Origin: Parcubacteria group bacterium
GTDB lineage: Bacteria > Patescibacteriota > Minisyncoccia > 2-02-FULL-40-12
Reading direction: 5' to 3'
NCBI GenBank assembly: GCA_016186395.1
Contig: JACPLU010000002.1
Coordinates: 11,470 to 75,469, forward strand
DNA length: 64,000 bases
Shown: positions 18,165 to 28,345 of the stretch, in pieces
Layout: each line of letters begins with the position of its first letter
How positions within the stretch are numbered: position 1 is the stretch's first letter
Made by a program: the position numbers and the translations under genes
The notes under the pieces: model-generated
What the model saw: only the letters and a program-made list of their open reading frames with translations
What the model was told of the DNA's origin: nothing
Database searches by the model: none

Positions 18165-18950
18165 TTACTGGCCTTCTACCAAATTCCTGAGATGACTAAT
18201 GTCTTGCTGGCAAATCTTGCAATCACAGCCTGTTTTCTCTATATCTATTCGTCCGCCTAGCTTATTCAATATATGGTCAATCATTTTCGTCCAATGGGTA
18301 AATTTGTCATCCATATTTTTGGCCGACAGAATTTTGGTCAAAATATCCCTGAGCTTAGGATCCCACTTCTTTAAGTCTGACAGCGTCTTCTTGTTACTGG
18401 TGTGCCAGCGACCGACTATCTCATAATACATATCAAGAATATCTCGCAGTCCCGTATGCATCACGTGATTAGCAGCAACAGGATCAGTATGTAAATGCCT
18501 TTTCACCTTTAAATCTTCATTTAGAATAACAAACCTGACCCAGTCGTGTTTGGATTTAGAATATTTTTTAGGAAGCCTTCTCTTTTTTGCGTCGGCAATA
18601 AGGTCTTTTAGTTTTCCATCTTTATCAAACAAGACTATGGACTCGGAAACAATAGGTATTCTCTTTGCTCGCTCGAGTTCCTTTTCAGTATCTTCTCTTA
18701 ATCTTTCTATAGAGTTAAAGCTTATATCAAGTTTGATCCCGTCAATTCTTATATGGTTAAGCTCAGAATGGTCTTTTCCACCAACAACAACCTTTACGTC
18801 TATGTCACTACCCTTAACAAACTCTCCTCTCACGGATGAACCAAAAATAAGGCAAGCTCTATACCTTTCGTCATCTTTAAGCTTTTTTAGAATACTAAAA
18901 ACTTTAGCAACACGACGATTAAGTTCTTTGTTGTTGGAGTATATGGACAT
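18165..18950 (-). CDS. Nucleotidyltransferase (Pol-beta superfamily, MNT-like) domain protein
   Basis: LIFGSSVRGEFVKGSDIDVKVVV = GSxxRGE...SDIDV NTase motif; last gene of a 6-gene minus-strand block. Confidence 0.55.
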   Translation of the reverse strand: MSIYSNNKELNRRVAKVFSILKKLKDDERYRACLIFGSSVRGEFVKGSDIDVKVVVGGKDHSELNHIRIDGIKLDISFNSIERLREDTEKELERAKRIPIVSESIVLFDKDGKLKDLIADAKKRRLPKKYSKSKHDWVRFVILNEDLKVKRHLHTDPVAANHVMHTGLRDILDMYYEIVGRWHTSNKKTLSDLKKWDPKLRDILTKILSAKNMDDKFTHWTKMIDHILNKLGGRIDIEKTGCDCKICQQDISHLRNLVEGQ

Positions 18951-18966
18951 AAAAGAGTTTTGACAC

Positions 18967-19482
18967 TCATTGCTTATTAAGTAAGTCGCTATAGGACTTT
19001 GATATTAAATCAGATTGAGAGACATTGAAAAGTTTCAGATATTGATTGCACTGTTCTAATAACTTTTCTTTGCCGATTTTACCCGTTTTATCTATTGCCT
19101 CAATTTCAATAAAACTTCCCAAGCCCCTGACTTGATCTATATGAAACTTAACATTTTTTATAAAGTAAATTTCTCTCTTCTTGTCTACTATCTTGAAGAC
19201 CCCAAGAGCCTTAATTAGGATGTTCTCCAAAAGACTTTTTGAAGTTGTTTTATATAGAATAACATCGGATTGCTTAGGACCTTTTTTATCCTGTCTCTGA
19301 TAGTAAATCAGATAGTTTTCTATATTGCCTTTCCTCAATTTTAGTCTACCATTAGCCACCTTGAAATAAGTATCTATTTGATGATCTGTGCCAATAAAGC
19401 GAGATCCTTTTTCTTTAAGGATTTTCCTTATTTTGTTCGGATCCTTTGATCTTGCCTTTATCTCAATATTAATATGGCTCAT
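18967..19482 (-). CDS. CYTH-domain protein (class IV adenylyl cyclase / triphosphate-tunnel metalloenzyme family)
   Basis: N-terminal NIEIKARSKD (EIEIK/ExExK CYTH signature); 171 aa, typical CYTH size. Confidence 0.5.
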   Translation of the reverse strand: MSHINIEIKARSKDPNKIRKILKEKGSRFIGTDHQIDTYFKVANGRLKLRKGNIENYLIYYQRQDKKGPKQSDVILYKTTSKSLLENILIKALGVFKIVDKKREIYFIKNVKFHIDQVRGLGSFIEIEAIDKTGKIGKEKLLEQCNQYLKLFNVSQSDLISKSYSDLLNKQ

Positions 19483-20178
19483 TTAATTTAAGACCTTATA
19501 CTCAAGCAATAAGTAGGAATTTTCTAATGGCTTAGCTTGGACCAATTCCAAAGCTTTAACCTTAAATAAATCCTCGGGGCTGTGAAGCGACTCGCCATCC
19601 ATTAAAGAGGCTGTATCCTTGCCCCCTACCATTGCAGGAGCAACAACGAGAAGCAATCTATCAATGAGACCCTCTCTGACCCAAGAGGCGTTCATTGTGC
19701 CACCCGTCTGGATAGTAATCCGATCTACGCCATAATCCTCTTTGAACCTTCTTAATACATCAGCCAAATCAATCTTGTCGTCGTATTTGAGTATCTCAAT
19801 GTTTGGAAACTCTTTCTTGAGTTCAAAAGCTGGATGTTCAGAGTTGGTAGTAATTATATAAAGCGTCTTACTCTTTTTAGCCATATAGGCCGTACCGTTT
19901 TTGTTGAGATGGGGCTTACTGTCAATGATGATAAAATTGACTGGAGTTTTTGTTGGTTCATCAGTCTTCTCATTAATGCCGATCTTCTCAAAAACTCGGC
20001 CAGAGTTTAGAGAGTGTAAATCCGTTTGTTGTTCAAGATCGTAGTATTGCTTATTGCCTTCCTTAACTCCATCAATCTTTTTGTAATCGGTATCCGTATC
20101 CATAATATCTGTATCGCCAGTAGAAATCTTGCCGTCAACGGATATTAAGAGGAAAAGTGTTGTATATGGTCTATTCAT
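19483..20178 (-). CDS. RibD C-terminal-domain / dihydrofolate-reductase-like reductase family protein
   Basis: N-term LFLLISVDGKIST and C-term LIDRLLLVVAPAMVGGKDTASL match the RibD_C pattern (SLDGKIA ... hhhPhhhGgG). Confidence 0.45.
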   Translation of the reverse strand: MNRPYTTLFLLISVDGKISTGDTDIMDTDTDYKKIDGVKEGNKQYYDLEQQTDLHSLNSGRVFEKIGINEKTDEPTKTPVNFIIIDSKPHLNKNGTAYMAKKSKTLYIITTNSEHPAFELKKEFPNIEILKYDDKIDLADVLRRFKEDYGVDRITIQTGGTMNASWVREGLIDRLLLVVAPAMVGGKDTASLMDGESLHSPEDLFKVKALELVQAKPLENSYLLLEYKVLN

Positions 20179-21256
20179 ATAAAGATTTAGTCTTTTTACA
20201 AAGTTTCGGATCTTCTAGCACGTCAGAACTGTCAATAAACTGGTCTACTGAACCTATGTTTGGTAACTTTTTAAGTTCCTCCTCGGTAATGGTTTTTCTG
20301 ATAGCATCAGCAAACCCGTCGGCGTGAATAACTAGATAAGGTCGCTCGTGGTATGAAGAAACTTCAGTAGTCATTGGTTTGGTTATGCCAAGCTCATTGT
20401 GGGCTTGAGCAATTATCTTATAGGCTTCGGCCAGATATTTCTCTCGTTCTTTCCAAGAAGAAGCAAGTAGGGTTTTGGATAAGCTAGGTTCCAGCTTAGA
20501 AGCAATGTTTAGCTTGCTAAAAGCAGTTCCAAACCATTTAGTGTAGGGATAATACTTCTGGTCCATCAGAAAGCATAGTTTCATTAATTCACGCACTATC
20601 CGAGAAGCGACTACCTGAGACCCGAGTTCATCGCCTACGTCGCCTGTGCGGCCTACAAAGGCCTCTTCTTGCGATATTCTGGTCCACTGGGCAGCTAGCA
20701 GGTAAAGCCATACTTCTTTCGGGTAGAAATTGAATTTATTCCTAATCGTTTCTAGCTCGCTGAGACCATCGTGATAGACAGCACCACTCGTTAAGGCCAG
20801 TAATCTTTGCTGAGGGAAAGTAAGCCAATCAAGATTAGTTATTTCTTGATATGGATCGAACTTAATTCGCATCTGCCATAAGGATTTTATCGTAAATATA
20901 TCAACCATATGATCTACTGGTCCCGAAGTTATGGTCTTGGATATTCTCACTCCATTTTCTTGAGACTTAGAGAAATTAGTTGAGTAGCCCATAAATTCAT
21001 ACGGGAGTTTCTCGGATAAAGTTTTGCTGATCTTTTCTTTGAGTTCAGGAAAGTCAGCTTCGGACAAGAAAATCAAAACACGAGGACCCCAATGATGATC
21101 CCGAGATATTTCAGTGTCATATCCAAGGACTTCCGAGCCCCAACCTATAAGGGCAGCCGAGTATTTTAAGTTAGGAAACTCACTATCTAGAATAGGTTTA
21201 ACAACTTCTTGATAATAGCTCCTGCTTAGTTCAATTCCTGATAAAAATTCAGCCAT
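20171..21256 (-). CDS. Hypothetical protein (possible nucleotidyltransferase-fold N-terminus)
   Basis: AALIGWGSEVLGYDTEISRDHHWGPRVLIF loosely resembles hG[GS]x9-13D NTase core; 8-nt overlap with downstream RibD_C-like gene. Confidence 0.25.
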   Translation of the reverse strand: MAEFLSGIELSRSYYQEVVKPILDSEFPNLKYSAALIGWGSEVLGYDTEISRDHHWGPRVLIFLSEADFPELKEKISKTLSEKLPYEFMGYSTNFSKSQENGVRISKTITSGPVDHMVDIFTIKSLWQMRIKFDPYQEITNLDWLTFPQQRLLALTSGAVYHDGLSELETIRNKFNFYPKEVWLYLLAAQWTRISQEEAFVGRTGDVGDELGSQVVASRIVRELMKLCFLMDQKYYPYTKWFGTAFSKLNIASKLEPSLSKTLLASSWKEREKYLAEAYKIIAQAHNELGITKPMTTEVSSYHERPYLVIHADGFADAIRKTITEEELKKLPNIGSVDQFIDSSDVLEDPKLCKKTKSLYE

Positions 21257-21286: not shown

Positions 21287-21931
21287 CTATAGTTCTTTGA
21301 TAAATTTTATTGGGATAGCACTAAAACCAATCACATCCCTAGAACTTCTCTCATCACTGGCCCCTCGTGCGATTACCCCGACGGCTTCATCCTTGCTATT
21401 TAATAAGACTCCGCCGCTCATACCAACATAAAGTGGTCGGTCTATGACGATATGAGGCCTAAGACCAATGTCGGTATACGAGGAAACATTACCATAATAC
21501 TGCTGAGGCTCATCGCTAGGAAAGTACTGGGTAAACCCAACTGCAAGAACTTTTTCCCGAACTAAAATATCTTGTCTTGCCATTTTAATAGTAGGAAAAT
21601 ATTTATCGTCCGTCCCTTCAAGCTTCAATATCGCAAGATCTAACAAACTGATTTTCGACACTACGATAGCATTATATTTTTCAGAGCTTCCCGTCATTTT
21701 GTAGGCCACTATTTTCTCATTTAAATCAAAGACGTGAGCACAGGTAACCAGACCTATACCATCTAACATAAAAGCGGTGCCGTTAGATATACCATTGCTT
21801 TCTATCATCCAAATCGACTCGTTTATTATCTTATAATCATCGAGGGGTAGAAACGGATAGCCATTTCTGCTCAACTGATTAAACTTATTTATCAAATTTC
21901 TATATACTCTGCTTTTCTGTCCCTTAACCAT
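21287..21931 (-). CDS. Trypsin-like (S1/chymotrypsin fold) serine protease; candidate retron effector
   Basis: Triad candidates TCAHV (His), LLDLAILKL (Asp), GMSGGVLL (GxSGG Ser); overlaps the RT stop by 8 nt. Confidence 0.6.
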   Translation of the reverse strand: MVKGQKSRVYRNLINKFNQLSRNGYPFLPLDDYKIINESIWMIESNGISNGTAFMLDGIGLVTCAHVFDLNEKIVAYKMTGSSEKYNAIVVSKISLLDLAILKLEGTDDKYFPTIKMARQDILVREKVLAVGFTQYFPSDEPQQYYGNVSSYTDIGLRPHIVIDRPLYVGMSGGVLLNSKDEAVGVIARGASDERSSRDVIGFSAIPIKFIKEL

Positions 21932-22892
21932 CCTTTACAAAGTTTATTTTCCCTTCGATTATTTTAGAAAATTCAACAGATTTAATATGAGGGGCTCTTT
22001 CTTTTAATCTATTTTTAAAATAAGCCTCCTCCGCGACCCTTAAATCATATTTACGCCATTTATCTAATAGAACTCTTATTTCTCTTATGTACTCTCTTTT
22101 TATATTTGGCGTTCTATTGGTTACCAACCCCGTCACCTCCTGTCTCCTTCCAGTTCTTAATATTCGAGTTTTAGCATCATTAATAATAAATCCATTAGAG
22201 GCGATGATAGACAATATGCCTTTCCCGCATAATGGAGCACTGCCAGACTCAACTATTTCCTTATGGAAAAATGCCTGTCTTGTGGAGATAGTAATATCAT
22301 CCGCATAGCGTGTATAAACGGCATTGTACTTTTTGACTAATGCTTGAAATGCTCCGTCCATTCTAGAACATATTAGGTTTGAAATAATCGGTGAAGTGGG
22401 AGCTCCTTGAGGTAGTTGGTTATTATGGCAGCATAAGTTGGCCAGTGCTGTAGCAACTGGAGCAGGCAGGCTAAACGGTGGTTTCAAAAATAAGCCTCTA
22501 ACTCTTCCAAAATTAATTGATGGAAAGAAATCTTTTAGATCAAGGTTGAATACTATCTTTTTGCCTGAGTGGGCCGAAGCGTTAGATACAATGTTTCTAT
22601 TATTTACAAATCCTTGAACCGATGGTCTGGGCTCATAACAAATAGAGAGAATGTAATTCAACTTTCTCTGCAAAATCTTTAAAGTTGAAGTTGGAGCTAG
22701 GATGCGTCGTTCGCCTCCTGATTTTTTCTTAATAACAAACTCTTTGTAGTTTGTAGGCTTATTTTTCCTATAAACCAAATAAATAAGTGTTTTGCAATCT
22801 ATCTCTAAAATATCAGCCACATCGATAAGTGTTTTTAGATTGCGAAACTTTTCTTTAAGGACTTCGGGAGAATTTAATAAGTCTGGTCGCAT
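21924..22892 (-). CDS. Retron-type reverse transcriptase
   Basis: NASAH (NAxxH), LNLDLKDFFPSI (nearly identical to the Ec86 RT motif), YADDITIS (YADD), EVTGLVTN (retron VTG motif); 322 aa. Confidence 0.85.
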   Translation of the reverse strand: MRPDLLNSPEVLKEKFRNLKTLIDVADILEIDCKTLIYLVYRKNKPTNYKEFVIKKKSGGERRILAPTSTLKILQRKLNYILSICYEPRPSVQGFVNNRNIVSNASAHSGKKIVFNLDLKDFFPSINFGRVRGLFLKPPFSLPAPVATALANLCCHNNQLPQGAPTSPIISNLICSRMDGAFQALVKKYNAVYTRYADDITISTRQAFFHKEIVESGSAPLCGKGILSIIASNGFIINDAKTRILRTGRRQEVTGLVTNRTPNIKREYIREIRVLLDKWRKYDLRVAEEAYFKNRLKERAPHIKSVEFSKIIEGKINFVKDG

Positions 22893-22904
22893 TTCTATGC
22901 AATT

Positions 22905-23048
22905 AAAAAAGGGTGCGATTTAAATTCTCTTTCTGCAAGCACGGTAATGTCTATATCCATAACATTACGCACATAAAGCAAGTAAAAGGAACCGTTTCTC
23001 ATCCGTCGCGAAACACAACGGCAATCAATTGTTATCACACCCTTTTTT
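22905..23048 (-). ncRNA. Candidate retron msr/msd non-coding RNA flanked by a1/a2 inverted repeats
   Basis: aaaaaagggtg (22905-22915) and caccctttttt (23038-23048) are an 11-bp inverted pair bracketing ~140 nt with internal hairpins (gtaatgt...acattac; ccgttg...cgacgg), immediately upstream of the RT ATG at 22892. Confidence 0.45.
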
Positions 23049-23139
23049 AAAAGAATAACGATCTTCTGGATCGTTGTTAGCCCAGTTGAATTATAGTGAA
23101 ATGTAAAGTATTGTAAAGCGTGTAACCCTAAATAGTTTT

Positions 23140-24420
23140 ATGTTTGATATTACAGAATTACCAGACAAATACACATTTAATCAAGAAAGTTTGTCCGAAG
23201 AGAAGTACATTGATGACAACTCCCTGTTTGTTTATTTTTGTATATCACGTGGACTTTTTAATAATCCCAAAGACTCCCAGATAAGCTTTATTTATTTTAA
23301 TCCCTTTGAGTGGACTAGTGTTGATTTTATAGCTTTTCTGCTCTCAGTTTGTAGTGACTACGGTTTGAATATTACGAACATAAAAACAATGGTTCCTGCC
23401 ATAGAAGATGAGTATGAGGTATCTCACAAGCCGAGGCGTTATAAGGGTGCATATAAATGGATCCTAGACTTAAGAAGAAATGAGCCCGAAAGAGAAGAAG
23501 TTAAACTTTTTGATAAGCTCTCTAGCGACACGGCTTCTATAGCCGACTTAGAACGAGCATTGATATACGCAAGTAGAATAGCCCCATTATACAAAGATGA
23601 GAAAAGCCAATTATATCTTTCTAAAGATTTGTTTAGGAACTTACTTTCTTATACAAGTTTCTGTATTGAGCCAAGTTCCACATCTAAAAATAAATTAAAG
23701 GCAAACCTAGATACCTATCTAGAAGAGTTCATGCAGGAAAAGCTTACCAGAGATAGCAAATCAAAAACGATTGGCAATACCTCCGTATCTCAATCTAAAA
23801 ACATCTTTACCTTCAAAAAACATCGTCAATTATTTGGAGAGTACCTACAGAGAATGCAAAATGATTTTGGAAACACAATGACCATTGAAAATATATTTGA
23901 AGAAAGATTTCCAAACCTTAGATACCCCGACTCAGAGACAATTAGAAAAAGATACTCTGAAAGAAACTTTTATTTTATACACATTCTACTTACGTTTCAC
24001 AAACAAGGTTTATTAAAGATTTTATCTCTTGGTAGTAATTGGGACTATCACGAAGATGAAATGTATACGTATCAGGCAAAGATCGAAATCCTACCAGCTT
24101 TTCTTAATGAAAATGTCTCAAATAAACTGCACTTTGATCTAGATAAATCTAGGCTATATGTGCAAGGGAAAGAGTTTAAGTTACTAAAGTTTAAAGACGA
24201 ATACCACACTCTTAGAGTTATGTTTGAGGATGTTAACGAGCTAGGCAAGGAATGGTTTTTTTCTGAAATTGCAGAAAGAATTGATGAGAACAGATTAGAC
24301 GATAAAAAGTACTATAACGCTATTTATCAGATAAGATTAAAGCTTGAGAAGCAAGGAATAAACGACTTCTTTATTACGACCAAACAGTCGGTCAAAATAA
24401 ACAAAAAATACCTGTCTTAG
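23140..24420 (+). CDS. Hypothetical protein (island cargo)
   Basis: 426-aa ORF with AT-rich codon usage; no recognisable motif. Confidence 0.3.
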   Translation: MFDITELPDKYTFNQESLSEEKYIDDNSLFVYFCISRGLFNNPKDSQISFIYFNPFEWTSVDFIAFLLSVCSDYGLNITNIKTMVPAIEDEYEVSHKPRRYKGAYKWILDLRRNEPEREEVKLFDKLSSDTASIADLERALIYASRIAPLYKDEKSQLYLSKDLFRNLLSYTSFCIEPSSTSKNKLKANLDTYLEEFMQEKLTRDSKSKTIGNTSVSQSKNIFTFKKHRQLFGEYLQRMQNDFGNTMTIENIFEERFPNLRYPDSETIRKRYSERNFYFIHILLTFHKQGLLKILSLGSNWDYHEDEMYTYQAKIEILPAFLNENVSNKLHFDLDKSRLYVQGKEFKLLKFKDEYHTLRVMFEDVNELGKEWFFSEIAERIDENRLDDKKYYNAIYQIRLKLEKQGINDFFITTKQSVKINKKYLS

Positions 24421-26251: not shown

Positions 26252-26745
26252 TGCATACAATCTCTGAACTCAATAATAAATGGTGGTATAGGTTAATAAA
26301 AGTCGGCTACCTACTTTTGATTATGGCGGCTTGTGTAATATCTATTGCAGTTGCCTTCGAAGACGTGGGCACTTATCAGACAGATTATTTAGTAGTATGC
26401 AACTATGGGAATAAGAGTACTTTTATTGCTAATAAGGACAAGGATATTTGGAATATCCCACAGTATTATGACTATAGCGAAAGCTTGGCCAAACTTCCTG
26501 ACTCAACCAAAATACAATTGCAATCAGCTTGTGGCATATCCCAAGCAGAAATGAATGCCAAGTTTGAAAATCCTAATGATAATAAAAAGCTATTCGATTT
26601 AACCGAAACAAAAGTAAATACCACGAGCTATTGGAGTGCAATACTATGGTCTATTCTGTCCATAATTATTACCTTCGCAATCGCAGAGATAATTAGAAGG
26701 ATTTTTTACTACATTGTTTTAGGTAAAGTTAAACCTGTGAAATGA
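26251..26745 (+). CDS. Small membrane protein (2 TM), island cargo
   Basis: TM segments near both ends; translationally coupled between the excisionase-like gene and the recombinase. Confidence 0.3.
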   Translation: MHTISELNNKWWYRLIKVGYLLLIMAACVISIAVAFEDVGTYQTDYLVVCNYGNKSTFIANKDKDIWNIPQYYDYSESLAKLPDSTKIQLQSACGISQAEMNAKFENPNDNKKLFDLTETKVNTTSYWSAILWSILSIIITFAIAEIIRRIFYYIVLGKVKPVK

Positions 26746-28298
26746 AAGCAATAATTCTAGCCAGAGTTTCTAAGGAAGATCAGCTTGAAGGGCAATCAAT
26801 ACCTGCCCAGCTTGCTCGTTCTCGACAATGGTGTAAAGACAAGAAACTCGTTATCAAAAGCGAATACCAGTTTGACGAGTCCTCAACCAAAGATCAGAGA
26901 AAAAAGTTTGAGAAAGTGATTGACGAGATCCGACAATCTAAAGAACCTATTGCTCTCGTAGTAGAAACGATTGACCGACTTCAAAGAAGTTTTAAGGAGT
27001 CCGTTATGTTGGACGAGTTTAGGAAAAGCGGAAAGCTGGAAATCCATTTCCTGCGAGAAGGTCTTGTCGTTAGCGATAAATCAAATAGCTCAGAGCTATT
27101 GCGTTGGGATATGGGTGTGATGTTCGCAAGGAGCTATGTTTTACAGCTCAGTGATAATGTTAAGCGAAGCATTGAGGGCAGACTACGAAACGGCCAATGG
27201 ATTGGTCGGCCACGTATGGGTTACATCAACATAACCAAAGAGGACGGAACTCGGGATATTGTTCAAGACCCCGAGCGAGCTCATTTCATACGCAAAATCT
27301 TTGAGTATTACATCGCAGGAACTTCTTTGAACTTGCTATCCAAGAGAATGAAAAAGGAAGGGTTCAGGAGTCCTCAAAATAAGACTGTGACCGCAGGCGG
27401 TATCCATCGAATACTAATGGACTCATTCTATTACGGAATAATGGTTGTTAAGGGCAAAGAGTATCCGCACCGCTACACGCCGATTATCTCTCGTGATACT
27501 TTTCTTAAGGCTCAAGAAATCAGAACAGGCTGGAAGAAAACGCCATACAAACACAAAAGTAAACCCTACGCTCTAAAAGGGATTATTAAATGTGCTATTT
27601 GCGGTTGCACGGTTACGCCAGAGTTTAAGAAAGGCAAATACATTCTTTACGCCTGCACAAATTACAAGAAGGTCCACGAGAAGAAAACCTATATCCCCGA
27701 AGCAGACCTGCTTAAAGCCGTTTATAAGGCCTTGAAGCCGCTTGAGTTGCCTCAGAACAAGATAGACAAGCTCGTAGAGGACCTGCGGACATACAGCGAA
27801 GCTAAGACCATCTATCACGATGAGGCTATTCGGACACTAGATCGTAAGTATGCCGAGAGCCAAATCAGAATTGATAAACTTTTGGACTTACTGCTAGCCA
27901 GTAGTATTACTCAAGAGATGTATGACACGAAGTTTAAGAAAGAAAAAGAATTGCAGACTGATATTCTCATCCAAAAAGAAGATCACACCAACGCCGATAA
28001 AGAGTTTCACATCACTGCTTCTACTGTATTAAACCTAGCAAAACGAGCAACCGAGATAATTAAGAGTTCGGAACCAGAAGAAAAAAGGCAATTTATGAGC
28101 TATCTACTTCAGAACTGCCAATTAAATGGCAGAAACCTAGAGTTTACCTTACGAAATCCCTTCAACTTGATAGCTAAATACTCTAGCTATCCCACATTGC
28201 AGCCCCGACGGGATTTGAACCCGTGTTGCAGGAATGAAAATCCTGTGTCCTGGACCAGGCTAGACGACAGGGCCATAACTTTAAAAATTTTACCCTAA
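26742..28298 (+). CDS. Large serine recombinase (resolvase/invertase catalytic domain + recombinase domain + zinc ribbon)
   Basis: N-term MKAIILARVSKEDQLEGQSIPAQ (catalytic Ser in RVS); C-terminal CAICGC...YACTNYKK zinc ribbon; 518 aa; ORF reads through the opposite-strand tRNA-Glu. Confidence 0.8.
   Translation: MKAIILARVSKEDQLEGQSIPAQLARSRQWCKDKKLVIKSEYQFDESSTKDQRKKFEKVIDEIRQSKEPIALVVETIDRLQRSFKESVMLDEFRKSGKLEIHFLREGLVVSDKSNSSELLRWDMGVMFARSYVLQLSDNVKRSIEGRLRNGQWIGRPRMGYINITKEDGTRDIVQDPERAHFIRKIFEYYIAGTSLNLLSKRMKKEGFRSPQNKTVTAGGIHRILMDSFYYGIMVVKGKEYPHRYTPIISRDTFLKAQEIRTGWKKTPYKHKSKPYALKGIIKCAICGCTVTPEFKKGKYILYACTNYKKVHEKKTYIPEADLLKAVYKALKPLELPQNKIDKLVEDLRTYSEAKTIYHDEAIRTLDRKYAESQIRIDKLLDLLLASSITQEMYDTKFKKEKELQTDILIQKEDHTNADKEFHITASTVLNLAKRATEIIKSSEPEEKRQFMSYLLQNCQLNGRNLEFTLRNPFNLIAKYSSYPTLQPRRDLNPCCRNENPVSWTRLDDRAITLKILP
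28200..28274 (-). tRNA. tRNA-Glu (anticodon TTC)
   Basis: Reverse complement GGCCCTGTCGTCTAGCCTGGTCCAGGACACAGGATTTTCATTCCTGCAACACGGGTTCAAATCCCGTCGGGGCT closely parallels bacterial tRNA-Glu; anticodon loop TTTTCAT. Confidence 0.8.
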
Positions 28299-28345
28299 AA
28301 ATTGAAAAAAAACAATCCTTCGACAGGTTCAGGATTGTCCTGAAC

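What the first reader, a model, noticed from the sequence alone, without database searches (positions are those of the whole stretch)
21287..23048. Complete retron: a1/a2-flanked ncRNA, RT with canonical retron motifs, trypsin-like protease effector
Retron defense systems are little documented in CPR-like genomes, and the protease-only effector architecture is uncommon. The RT has NASAH, LNLDLKDFFPSI (almost identical to the Ec86 RT motif), YADD and the retron-specific VTG. A 144-nt region just upstream of its ATG is bracketed by an 11-bp inverted repeat (aaaaaagggtg / caccctttttt), as for retron a1/a2, and contains internal hairpins. The next gene overlaps the RT by 8 nt and carries a His/Asp/Ser (GMSGG) trypsin-fold triad. 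Whether serine-protease partners have been reported for retrons I cannot confirm from memory.
Basis: partly seen in the sequence, partly recalled or inferred. Interest (0 to 1): 0.8.

Follow-up and report, generated by a model that had tools for sequence, protein, structure and literature searches.

The report
Split RT/protease retron in a CPR bacterium
This is a real retron of the known "type XI" kind (reverse transcriptase plus trypsin-like protease) in a Parcubacteria genome; its one unusual feature is a single extra base that splits the normally fused gene into two overlapping genes.

Summary
On the minus strand lie a conserved promoter, a 148-nt structured ncRNA closed by a 17-bp a1/a2 inverted repeat, a 322-aa RT and a 214-aa trypsin-like protease overlapping it by 8 nt. 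The interpretation as a retron also holds. The RT matches retron models best (PADLOC RT-Protease_XI, 1.8e-119; nearest solved structure retron Eco2), with group II intron RTs far behind. Serine-protease retrons are already known as type XI (Mestre 2020), where RT and protease form one polypeptide. The window's two ORFs match the two halves of that single-gene profile end to end. The closest relatives, about 90% and 80% identical, are fused. The window differs by one inserted G just before a conserved Met codon, and two independent sequencing runs are 100% identical to it. Both halves show dN/dS of about 0.05, so there is no sign of decay. The ncRNA architecture recurs upstream of most RT-protease genes with unrelated arm sequences, and covariation supports it. 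The host is a Parcubacteria chromosome. The retron adjoins a serine-recombinase element inserted at tRNA-Glu. Verdict: a known kind in a minimally new split variant and an unusual host. Whether the split protease is made is untested.

The parts
23090..23117 (-). Sigma-70-like promoter for the ncRNA-RT-protease transcript (TTTACA, 16-nt spacer, TATAAT).
   Evidence: It matches 11 of 12 consensus positions. A 37-nt block containing it is identical or nearly identical in the three alleles (window, L166, L001), while the sequence further upstream is unrelated.
23057..23075 (-). Leader hairpin between the promoter and a1, followed by a U-rich run. Its role is unclear and it is probably not essential.
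   Evidence: The terminator-like scan found it. L001 has a different hairpin here and L166 has no clear one.
22903..23050 (-). Retron ncRNA (msr-msd), 148 nt from a1 to a2. It ends 11 nt before the RT start codon.
   Evidence: Fold z = -5.8. RNAalifold gives a consensus structure for the three alleles. A covariance model built from those alleles finds the equivalent element upstream of the RT in L086, L093, L036, L115 and L087. On the 8 forward-strand rows, 95% of cells are paired against 42-51% in slid controls, and 31 of 48 pairs show changes on both sides.
23034..23050 (-). a1, the 5' arm of the closing inverted repeat (UUAAAAAAGGGUGUGAU).
   Evidence: It forms 17 bp with a2. One position reads U.G in the window, C-G in L166 and U-A in L001; another reads G-C, G-C and G.U.
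22903..22919 (-). a2, the 3' arm of the closing inverted repeat (AUCGCACCCUUUUUUAA).
   Evidence: Same evidence as for a1. Across 23 other RT-protease loci the arms are 9-24 bp, span 107-172 nt, and are unrelated in sequence.
23026..23026 (-). Candidate priming (branching) G, in CAAUUG. G23022 (GAUUG) is the alternative. This is inferred, not shown.
   Evidence: An inner 4-bp helix (AAUU 23030-23027 with AAUU 22926-22923) extends a1/a2 across a 3x3 internal loop, and this G follows it directly. An 'AUUG' right after or at the end of a1 recurs in about half of the 24 aligned loci.
23003..23021 (-). msr hairpin H1 (CCGUUGUG, loop UUU, CGCGACGG).
   Evidence: It is identical in the three alleles. 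Its 3'-arm 'GC' is invariant in all 24 loci. Anchored on that GC, 18 of 24 loci have a contiguous 6-11-bp stem whose lower pairs change compensatorily between C-G, G-C, U-A and A-U.
22927..22988 (-). msd stem-loop, the predicted reverse-transcribed template. It has a conserved lower stem (CCUUUUACUUGC / GCAGAAAGAG) and a variable upper hairpin.
   Evidence: It appears in the RNAalifold consensus. The upper hairpin has a different sequence in L001 but still folds as a hairpin. The flanking AAGGUU and AAGAGAA motifs are conserved across the family.
21924..22892 (-). Retron reverse transcriptase, 322 aa, of the clade 8 / type XI lineage.
   Evidence: PADLOC RT-Protease_XI 1.8e-119, covering profile positions 2-301 of 510. 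Pfam RVT_1 1.3e-20. Against solved structures, Ec67/Eco2 scores 7.5e-60 and Ec86 2.9e-37, while group II intron RTs score about 4e-5.
21932..21933 (-). The GG dinucleotide that contains the single inserted G responsible for the split (AAG-G-ATG).
   Evidence: The window reads GTAAAGGATGG, L166 reads GTGAA-AATGG and L001 reads GTGAA-GATGG. Logan contigs from runs SRR12113430 and SRR12113420 are 100% identical to the window over 6.5 and 4.5 kb.
21287..21931 (-). Trypsin-like (HtrA/DegS-fold) serine protease, 214 aa. It is the effector module of the retron and starts at the conserved junction Met.
   Evidence: PADLOC RT-Protease_XI 5.9e-39, covering profile positions 299-496 of 506. Pfam Trypsin_2 1.8e-16. 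The His/Asp/Ser columns are invariant in 39 fused homologues. The protease part of the AlphaFold model of fused homologue P0002 matches the DegS and HtrA protease domains.
26742..28298 (+). Context: a large serine recombinase of the adjoining integrative element. Its last 30 codons read through the antisense strand of tRNA-Glu (28199-28274).
   Evidence: PHROG integrase 1.3e-74. The tRNA was found by ARAGORN and Rfam. Homologues are 488 aa and stop at the tRNA edge. The same gene block adjoins the retron in L001 and L166.

Best explanation
The locus is a retron anti-phage system of the type XI lineage (clade 8 RT with a trypsin-like serine protease effector) in the chromosome of a Parcubacteria (CPR) bacterium. 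It lies next to a small serine-recombinase element inserted at tRNA-Glu.

Shown here:
- A conserved promoter precedes a 148-nt ncRNA, which is followed by the RT and protease genes.
- The ncRNA has the retron layout. A long a1/a2 duplex is extended by an inner AAUU/AAUU helix. A conserved msr hairpin follows, then a long msd stem-loop with a variable tip.
- The RT and the protease are homologous, end to end, to the two halves of the single-gene RT-protease of type XI retrons.
- One inserted G, placed just 5' of a conserved Met codon at the module boundary, converts the fusion into two ORFs with an ATGGTTAA start/stop overlap.

Inferred, by analogy with characterised retrons and especially Eco2, the closest solved relative:
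- The RT primes from the 2'-OH of a G next to the a1/a2 duplex (candidate G23026).
- It copies the msd stem-loop into an msDNA of roughly 60-75 nt.
- The RT-msDNA complex holds the protease inactive.
- Phage-induced damage to the msDNA or the complex releases the protease, which cleaves cellular or phage proteins and aborts the infection.
- In this lineage the protease would be made as a separate polypeptide by termination-reinitiation and would dock on the RT non-covalently, perhaps through the helix pair that spans the split site.
For: Identity of the proteins. The RT scores best against PADLOC RT-Protease_XI (1.8e-119, profile 2-301 of 510). The protease matches the same profiles at positions 299-496 (5.9e-39). 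By sequence and fold the nearest solved relative is retron Eco2, followed by Ec86, Ec78, Ec83 and Eco8. The protease triad columns are invariant in 39 homologues.

The split. The relatives at 87-92% identity (L166) and about 80% identity (L001) are fused. A single G insertion explains the difference. The other RT-protease loci found by tblastn all have both parts in one frame. An HMM scan of 167 sequences classed 45 as fused. Contigs from two independent runs are 100% identical to the window. Between window and L166, dN/dS is 0.055 for the RT and 0.046 for the protease. Changes specific to the window lineage in the protease are 19 synonymous to 1 nonsynonymous. No residue is lost; the RT only gains 'DG'.

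The ncRNA. Fold z = -5.8. Across the three alleles the msr is conserved, the msd tip varies and a1/a2 changes are compensated. Upstream inverted repeats are a family-wide feature. Hairpin H1 covaries. The covariance model finds the element in distant loci, and 95% of cells are paired against 42-51% in slid controls.

Host and literature. The neighbouring valine--tRNA ligase (ValS) and the source's own protein names place the contig in Parcubacteria/Patescibacteria. Type XI is defined in PMC7736814. RT-DNA production from type XI ncRNAs is reported in PMC10849725. The Eco2 caging and release mechanism is described in PMC12916289 and PMC12405507.
Against: Nothing functional has been measured: no msDNA, no protease activity, no defence phenotype.

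The protease ORF has no usable Shine-Dalgarno sequence. AAGGA abuts the ATG, so expression depends on reinitiation and may be low or absent.

Every other confirmed close relative is fused, so the split could be a recent loss-of-function mutation that has not yet decayed. The dN/dS values cannot date the insertion.

The priming G is not identified. The family motif before the candidate is AUUG, not the 'TTA' consensus reported before the priming G in PMC10849725.

No published mechanism or target for a type XI protease was found.

The covariation counts rest on an alignment fitted to the model's structure, which biases them toward that structure.
Confidence: 0.8

Rival explanations
1. The retron is recently broken. 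The inserted G is a loss-of-function frameshift, the protease is no longer translated, and the locus is an RT-plus-ncRNA remnant on its way to decay or to recruiting another effector.
For: All close relatives and 45 other loci are fused. There is no Shine-Dalgarno sequence at a workable distance from the protease ATG. Three apparent stand-alone 213-215-aa homologues were checked, and all three proved to be fused genes truncated at a contig edge. Type XI-like lineages that have lost the protease do exist (bioRxiv 10.64898/2026.05.14.725207).
Against: The insertion sits at the one position that preserves every residue of both modules and places a conserved ATG 5 nt before the RT stop, which is the arrangement expected for translational coupling. 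The 214-codon ORF has no further lesions. The window lineage shows 19 synonymous to 1 nonsynonymous change in the protease, the same as the fused L166 lineage. One other locus, L088, encodes the protease as a separate gene, so action in trans is plausible in this family.
Confidence: 0.22
2. The split is a sequencing or assembly artefact, and the real gene is a canonical fused type XI RT-protease.
For: The difference is a one-base length change in a short G run (G to GG). All relatives are fused.
Against: The NCBI MAG protein and Logan assemblies of two different runs (SRR12113430, SRR12113420) give the identical sequence: 100% identity over 6,524 and 4,476 nt with no gaps. A GG run is too short to be a typical homopolymer-error site.
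Confidence: 0.06
3. It is not a retron. The RT belongs to a group II intron, a DGR or another defence RT, and the upstream inverted repeat is coincidental.
For: Pfam sees only the generic RVT_1 domain. Rfam has no matching msr family. [quoted passage not shown]
Against: Retron models score about 330-400 bits. The group II intron maturase model scores 57.6 bits against a cut-off of 300, and Drt2 and Drt3a score 38 and 29 bits. The top 18 fold matches are all retron RTs. The retron-specific NAxxH and VTG motifs are present. No group II intron RNA was found. The inverted-repeat architecture recurs across the family and covaries.
Confidence: 0.01
4. The protease is an unrelated housekeeping HtrA/DegS-type protease that merely lies next to the RT.
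For: Its fold and its weak NCBIfam hits are to DegS, DegP and HtrA.
Against: Those NCBIfam hits score 20-32 bits against cut-offs above 400, and no PDZ domain was detected. The best match is the C-terminal half of the RT-Protease_XI profile, continuous with where the RT match ends. At 78-92% identity the same sequence forms the C-terminal domain of fused RT-proteases.
Confidence: 0.01

Closest known systems
Type XI retrons (Mestre et al. 2020, NAR, PMC7736814; PADLOC model 'RT-Protease_XI', annotated 'single gene')
   Same: Both have a clade 8 retron RT with NAxxH, YADD and VTG motifs and a C-terminal-type trypsin-like serine protease module with a His/Asp/Ser triad. The junction motif GK(I/L)NFx(R/K)|M(V/I)(K/R)G is shared. 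The ncRNA lies directly upstream of the RT. The best HMM hits for both window ORFs are to this family.
   Different: The family is defined by a single fused ORF. Here one inserted G yields two ORFs that overlap by 8 nt. The host phylum also differs: type XI was surveyed mainly in Bacteroidota, Bacillota and others, and the 2026 SPIRE survey does not mention Patescibacteria.
Retron Eco2 / Ec67 (type I-C, RT-TOPRIM fusion; PDB 9lm3, 9i2f, 9s1f; PMC12916289, PMC12405507)
   Same: It is the closest solved relative of the RT (phmmer 7.5e-60; Foldseek 1.3e-28; 36% identity). It belongs to the same RT clade and has an effector module attached at the same C-terminal boundary. It offers the most plausible mechanistic template. 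In Eco2 the msDNA scaffold cages the effector, and the phage nuclease DenB degrades the msDNA to release it.
   Different: The Eco2 effector is a TOPRIM RNase that cuts tRNAs, not a protease. The Eco2 effector is covalently fused. Neither trimer formation nor a DenB-type trigger has been tested for type XI.
Type XII retrons (RT-TIR fusion; NCBIfam NF042941 Retron_TIR_antiphage)
   Same: The RT module is nearly as similar as in type XI (PADLOC 3.3e-117; NCBIfam 5.4e-99 over RT residues 23-320). Homology ends exactly where the window's RT ORF ends.
   Different: The effector is a TIR domain rather than a protease. The window RT scores 332 bits against this model's cut-off of 600, because it has no TIR part.
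Retron types with the same effector either fused or separate (type VII-A1, DUF3800 fused to the RT, versus VII-A2, DUF3800 as a separate gene; type I-B versus I-C for TOPRIM) (PMC7736814)
   Same: These are precedents for one effector module working either as an RT fusion or as a neighbouring gene. That is the relationship between canonical type XI and the window.
   Different: Those pairs are established, widespread subtypes. The split form here is seen in a single strain, plus one differently arranged locus (L088, with the protease gene upstream of the RT).

Membership tests
Retron (general) | The RT belongs to the retron clade and carries the retron-specific regions X (NAxxH) and Y (VTG) plus the YADD catalytic motif. 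| tested here: met
   NASAH, YADD and VTG are present. Retron HMMs and retron structures are the best hits by a wide margin.
Retron (general) | A structured ncRNA lies next to the RT, closed by an a1/a2 inverted repeat and containing msr hairpin(s) and an msd stem-loop. | tested here: met
   There is a 17-bp a1/a2 duplex, hairpin H1 and a long msd stem; fold z = -5.8. The architecture recurs across the family and covaries.
Retron (general) | A conserved priming G next to the a1/a2 duplex, joined to the msDNA by a 2'-5' branch. | tested here: inconclusive
   Candidate G23026 follows an inner AAUU/AAUU helix, and an AUUG motif recurs in about half of the aligned loci. The motif is not universal, and the branch itself cannot be seen in sequence.
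Retron (general) | Production of msDNA (RT-DNA). | not testable with these tools
   This needs expression and urea-PAGE or sequencing. PMC10849725 reports validated ncRNAs for clade 8 / type XI retrons, but not for this one.
Type XI retron (Mestre 2020) | The RT is closest to the clade 8 / type XI RTs. | tested here: met
   The best PADLOC model is RT-Protease_XI at 398 bits, ahead of XII at 390 and I-C at 351. The nearest homologues, at 50-92% identity, are RT-protease fusions.
Type XI retron (Mestre 2020) | A trypsin-like serine protease effector module with a catalytic triad. | tested here: met
   Pfam Trypsin_2 1.8e-16. PADLOC profile positions 299-496 are covered. The His, Asp and Ser columns are invariant in 39 homologues. 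The protease part of the AlphaFold model of fused homologue P0002 matches the DegS fold.
Type XI retron (Mestre 2020) | RT and protease are fused in a single ORF. | tested here: not met
   There are two ORFs in different frames that overlap by 8 nt. They result from a one-base insertion relative to the fused alleles L166 and L001 and are reproduced in two runs.
Group II intron RT / DGR RT | The RT scores above the family cut-off and an intron RNA or a TR/VR repeat pair is present. | tested here: not met
   The group II RT-maturase model scores 57.6 bits against a cut-off of 300. Rfam finds no intron RNA in the window. A TR/VR pair was not searched for specifically.
HtrA/DegP/DegS housekeeping proteases | A protease domain plus PDZ domain(s), scoring above the family cut-offs. 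| tested here: not met
   Scores are 20-32 bits against cut-offs of 350-720, and no PDZ domain was detected in the 214-aa protein.

The most novel reading that the evidence does not exclude
The split is functional and selected. In this Parcubacteria lineage the type XI protease works as a separate, translationally coupled subunit that the RT-msDNA complex binds and restrains non-covalently. This would be a natural experiment showing that the type XI effector is separable. It would define a two-gene subtype of type XI, carried by a tRNA-targeting serine-recombinase element in a CPR genome, where retrons are rare.
Probability: 0.45. Interest if true: 0.45.

Novelty: new variant of a known kind. 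Interest (0 to 1): 0.35.

Why it matters
Retrons with a protease effector have been catalogued as type XI since 2020, but I found no published target or activation mechanism for the protease. A naturally split version gives a ready-made construct in which RT-ncRNA and protease can be expressed, titrated and mutated separately. That would make it simple to test whether the RT-msDNA complex inhibits the protease in trans.

The family-level ncRNA layout assembled here fills in a picture for the canonical, protease-bearing type XI retrons. Mestre 2020 found no recognisable ncRNA module for them. The layout has these parts:
- a long a1/a2 duplex
- an inner helix followed by a G
- a hairpin with a conserved GUUGU...GCGAC apex
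- an AAGGUU motif
- an msd stem
- a purine-rich AAGAGAA motif before a2

The locus also documents a complete retron in a Parcubacteria chromosome, where DGRs make up most RTs, and suggests how it may have arrived: on or beside a small serine-recombinase element. None of this changes the understanding of what retrons are.

Tried and rejected
1. Rfam, permissive scan of the locus and gathering-threshold scan of the whole window: no msr or other family matched the ncRNA. Only chance-level hits and five tRNAs appeared.

2. nhmmer and blastn with the ncRNA against 165 related loci: only the same strain and L001-L003 matched. Primary sequence is not conserved beyond close alleles.

3. MAFFT alignment of 24 elements: it aligned the conserved motifs but not the stems, so it could not be used directly for pair counting. 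I used anchor-based counting and a covariance-model alignment instead. The tool's own count on alignment A9 included reverse-strand rows and overstates a1/a2 covariation. I recounted on forward-strand rows only.

4. Search for independent stand-alone proteases. The word-indexed search returned only the query itself and is clearly insensitive. The exhaustive search listed seven proteins of 212-223 aa that start at the same Met. All three that I checked are fused genes cut by a contig edge, with RT residues in frame upstream. They are not real splits.

5. Programmed frameshifting or transcriptional slippage as a way to restore the fusion: rejected by inspection. GUA AAG GAU GGU UAA has no slippery run and no known +1 signal.

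6. The divergent 426-aa neighbour and the downstream DUF4037 gene as retron accessories: rejected. The 426-aa protein has no match in L166 and is only 36% identical to the L001 copy. DUF4037 is absent from L166 and L001. Neither gene occurs in any other RT-protease locus.

7. Inverted-repeat search in the L088 intergenic region: no clear a1/a2 pair was found, and I did not pursue it.

8. Literature on retrons in CPR/Patescibacteria and on the type XI protease mechanism: nothing specific was found.
Full report
**What is there.**
On the minus strand between 23117 and 21287 lie four elements:
- a strong sigma-70-like promoter at 23117-23090 (TTTACA, 16-nt spacer, TATAAT; 11 of 12 consensus positions)
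- a 148-nt structured region at 23050-22903, closed by a 17-bp inverted repeat
- a 322-aa ORF at 22892-21924
- a 214-aa ORF at 21931-21287, overlapping the first by 8 nt (ATGGTTAA)

The only slip is that the RT motif reads FNLDLKDFFPSI rather than LNLDLKDFFPSI. The RNA folds at -48.8 kcal/mol, z = -5.8, and none of 200 dinucleotide shuffles folds as well.

**The proteins.**
The RT's best match among defence-system models is PADLOC 'RT-Protease_XI' (1.8e-119), and it covers only positions 2-301 of a 510-position profile. The protease ORF matches the same profiles at positions 299-496 (5.9e-39). The two ORFs are therefore the two halves of what that model describes as a single gene.

Other evidence agrees:
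- Pfam gives RVT_1 for the RT and Trypsin_2 for the protease.
- NCBIfam places the RT next to the retron-TIR and retron-Ec67 fusion families. The group II intron maturase model scores 57.6 bits against a cut-off of 300.
- Against solved structures, the RT is closest to retron Ec67/Eco2 (7.5e-60), then Ec86 (2.9e-37), with group II intron RTs near 4e-5.
- An AlphaFold model of the fused homologue P0002 (pLDDT 89) matches Eco2 first (1.3e-28) and then seventeen other retron RT chains. Its C-terminal part matches the DegS and HtrA protease domains.
- The His, Asp and Ser columns are invariant in 39 fused homologues.

It is a retron RT.

**What is known.**
Mestre et al. [quoted passage not shown] Khan et al. 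2024 (PMC10849725) state that their experimentally validated ncRNAs include clade 8, type XI. A 2026 preprint (10.64898/2026.05.14.725207) describes canonical type XI as a single ORF and predicts ncRNAs only for protease-less type XI-like lineages. The protease effector is therefore known.

**The split.**
The three nearest relatives are all fused:
- P0123 on L166 is 534 aa, with the RT 87% and the protease 92% identical to the window.
- P0002 on L001-L003 is 539 aa and about 80% identical.
- More distant homologues at 50-56% identity are also fused.

At the junction L166 reads GTGAA-AATGG, L001 reads GTGAA-GATGG and the window reads GTAAAGGATGG. One extra G sits directly 5' of the ATG. That Met is present in 34 of 39 fused homologues, within the conserved motif GK(I/L)NFx(R/K)M(V/I)(K/R)G. 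The result is GKINFVKDG-stop for the RT and MVKGQK... for the protease. No ancestral residue is lost.

The insertion is not a one-off assembly error. Logan assemblies of two different runs are 100% identical to the window over 6,524 and 4,476 nt.

In the other RT-protease loci recovered from genome and metagenome scans, both parts are in one frame. An HMM scan of 167 sequences gave 45 fused, 116 RT-only and 6 with separate ORFs. Three of those six are the window strain. The others are L161, which has several frameshifts; L105, a weak hit; and L088, where a 248-aa trypsin-like protease gene lies upstream of a type XI-like RT.

An exhaustive protein search listed several proteins of about 214 aa that start at the same Met. 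The three I examined are fused genes cut off by a contig edge.

Selection analysis shows no decay. Between window and L166, dN/dS is 0.055 for the RT and 0.046 for the protease. Changes specific to the window lineage in the protease are 19 synonymous to 1 nonsynonymous, identical to the fused sister lineage. This cannot date the insertion. It is compatible with a very recent event or with a functional two-gene system.

In the model, the split falls in the last turn of helix 308-323, and helix 328-341 follows. The two polypeptides may still pack through this helix pair, but that is an inference.

**The ncRNA.**
Across the three alleles the pattern is the classical retron one:
- The promoter and the msr part are identical.
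- The tip of the msd hairpin is replaced but still forms a hairpin.
- Changes in a1/a2 keep the pairing. One position reads U.G, C-G and U-A. Another reads G-C, G-C and G.U.

Beyond these alleles the primary sequence is unrecognisable, but the architecture persists. In 23 RT-protease loci a 9-24-bp inverted repeat spans 107-172 nt and ends within about 30 nt of the RT start (one locus, L093, at about 60 nt). The arm sequences are unrelated between loci. In 20 of 32 loci no dinucleotide shuffle out of 100 reaches the observed repeat, and in 23 of 32 at most 5 do.

Inside the element, MAFFT aligns four conserved motifs: AAUUG, (C/U)UGCGAC, AA-GGUU and AAGAGAA. Anchored on the invariant GC, 18 of 24 loci have a contiguous 6-11-bp hairpin whose lower pairs switch among C-G, G-C, U-A and A-U.

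A covariance model built from the three alleles alone finds the element just upstream of the RT in L086 (2.9e-7), L093, L036, L115 and L087. On the eight forward-strand rows, 95% of cells pair, against 42-51% when partners are slid by one to three columns. In addition, 31 of 48 pairs show changes on both sides. The caveat is that this alignment was fitted to the model's structure.

An inner AAUU/AAUU helix extends a1/a2 and is followed by G23026, my candidate priming G; G23022 is the alternative. This is a proposal. The motif is not universal, and it differs from the 'TTA' consensus reported before the priming G in PMC10849725.

**Host and context.**
The source's own names for the window proteins say Parcubacteria group bacterium. 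All named best hits of the valine--tRNA ligase (ValS) encoded 7 kb away are Patescibacteria: Yanofskybacteria, Paceibacterota and Microgenomates. The contig also carries the tRNA-modification gene tsaD and five tRNAs. The CPR assignment is therefore sound. A review notes that DGRs make up about 80% of CPR RTs (PMC8632793). I found no paper describing a retron in CPR.

Divergently transcribed from the retron is a seven-gene block: proteins of 426, 52, 371, 87 and 164 aa of unknown function, an HTH_17 excisionase-like protein of 57 aa, and a large serine recombinase. The recombinase ORF runs 30 codons into the antisense strand of tRNA-Glu (28199-28274). Most of the block adjoins the retron in L001 and L166, and the block occurs in no other RT-protease locus.

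Homology with L001 stops exactly at the protease stop codon. In L166 the same element end (…CCCACATTGCAG) abuts the 3' end of a different tRNA. The retron thus travels with, or next to, a tRNA-targeting integrative element. Whether it is cargo could not be settled, because downstream genes (RibD_C, CYTH, a nucleotidyltransferase) are also shared with L166.

**Mechanism.**
Shown by sequence: the parts list and their homology.

Inferred from retron biology and from Eco2, where the msDNA scaffold cages the fused effector and the phage nuclease DenB degrades the msDNA to release it (PMC12916289, PMC12405507):
- The RT primes at a G beside a1/a2.
- It copies the msd stem-loop (about 22988-22927) into msDNA.
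- The RT-msDNA complex restrains the protease.
- Infection releases the protease, and proteolysis aborts the infection.

The protease ATG lies 5 nt upstream of the RT stop and has no properly spaced Shine-Dalgarno sequence. Its synthesis would therefore depend on termination-reinitiation.

**Verdict.**
The finding is real and correctly interpreted, but it is a member of a catalogued class. Three features are slightly new: a clean, reproducible single-base split of the fusion at the module boundary; the Parcubacteria host; and a family-wide ncRNA layout for canonical type XI.

The main uncertainty is whether the split protease is still produced. I put about 0.45 on a functional two-gene system, about 0.22 on recent inactivation and about 0.06 on artefact. 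These figures do not sum to 1; the remainder is undecided. Interest is modest at 0.35.

Noticed in passing
window 28190-28300; L166 1-60: The serine-recombinase element ends at the same bases (…CCCACATTGCAG) in the window and in L166. In the window it abuts the 3' end of tRNA-Glu, and in L166 it abuts the 3' end of a different tRNA. The recombinase ORF of the window (518 aa) reads 30 codons into the antisense strand of the tRNA, whereas homologues are 488 aa and stop at that edge.
   Followed up: partly
window 23140-24420 (+): The 426-aa protein of unknown function, transcribed divergently from the retron promoter, is hypervariable between alleles. It is 36% identical to the L001 counterpart and has no detectable match to the 405-aa protein of L166. 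Its neighbours (the recombinase and the 371-aa protein) are 88-96% identical. It has no Pfam, PHROG, NCBIfam or PADLOC hit.
   Followed up: partly
L001 6610-7413: In the 80%-identical fused allele, a DUF3800 gene (Pfam 2.3e-6; PADLOC PDC-M04A 2.3e-7) overlaps the 3' end of the RT-protease gene by 11 nt. DUF3800 is the effector of type VII retrons. The gene is absent from the window and from L166.
   Followed up: partly
L088 879-1625 and 1941-3068: A metagenomic locus (Ga0126311_10006000) encodes a separate 248-aa trypsin-like protease upstream of a type XI-like RT (best PADLOC model RT-Protease_XI, 4.3e-137). This is an independent two-gene arrangement with a different gene order. No clear a1/a2 pair was found in its intergenic region.
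   Followed up: partly
window 18165-21256 (-): Downstream of the retron, on the same strand, lie a DUF4037 protein with a nucleotidyltransferase-like N-terminus, a RibD_C protein, a CYTH protein and a Pol-beta-type nucleotidyltransferase (weak PADLOC PDC-S09 hits). RibD_C, CYTH and the nucleotidyltransferase are shared with L166, which has DinB, Fic and GrpB genes interspersed. This looks like a variable accessory island.
   Followed up: partly
window 23057-23075 (-): A terminator-like hairpin followed by a U-rich run sits between the retron promoter and a1. L001 has a different hairpin at this place and L166 has none that is obvious. Its role, whether as leader or attenuator, is unknown.
   Followed up: no
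L006-L008, L013, L020, L021 and other cyanobacterial loci: Many RTs 45-51% identical to the window RT, from Nostoc, Microcoleus, Nodosilinea and others, are only 350-375 aa long and have no protease, TIR or TOPRIM domain. Their small downstream ORFs are unannotated. Their effector, if any, was not identified.
   Followed up: no
L161 158-1822: An RT-protease 52% identical to the window RT is broken into at least three ORFs by frameshifts. It is either a decaying copy or a low-quality contig.
   Followed up: no
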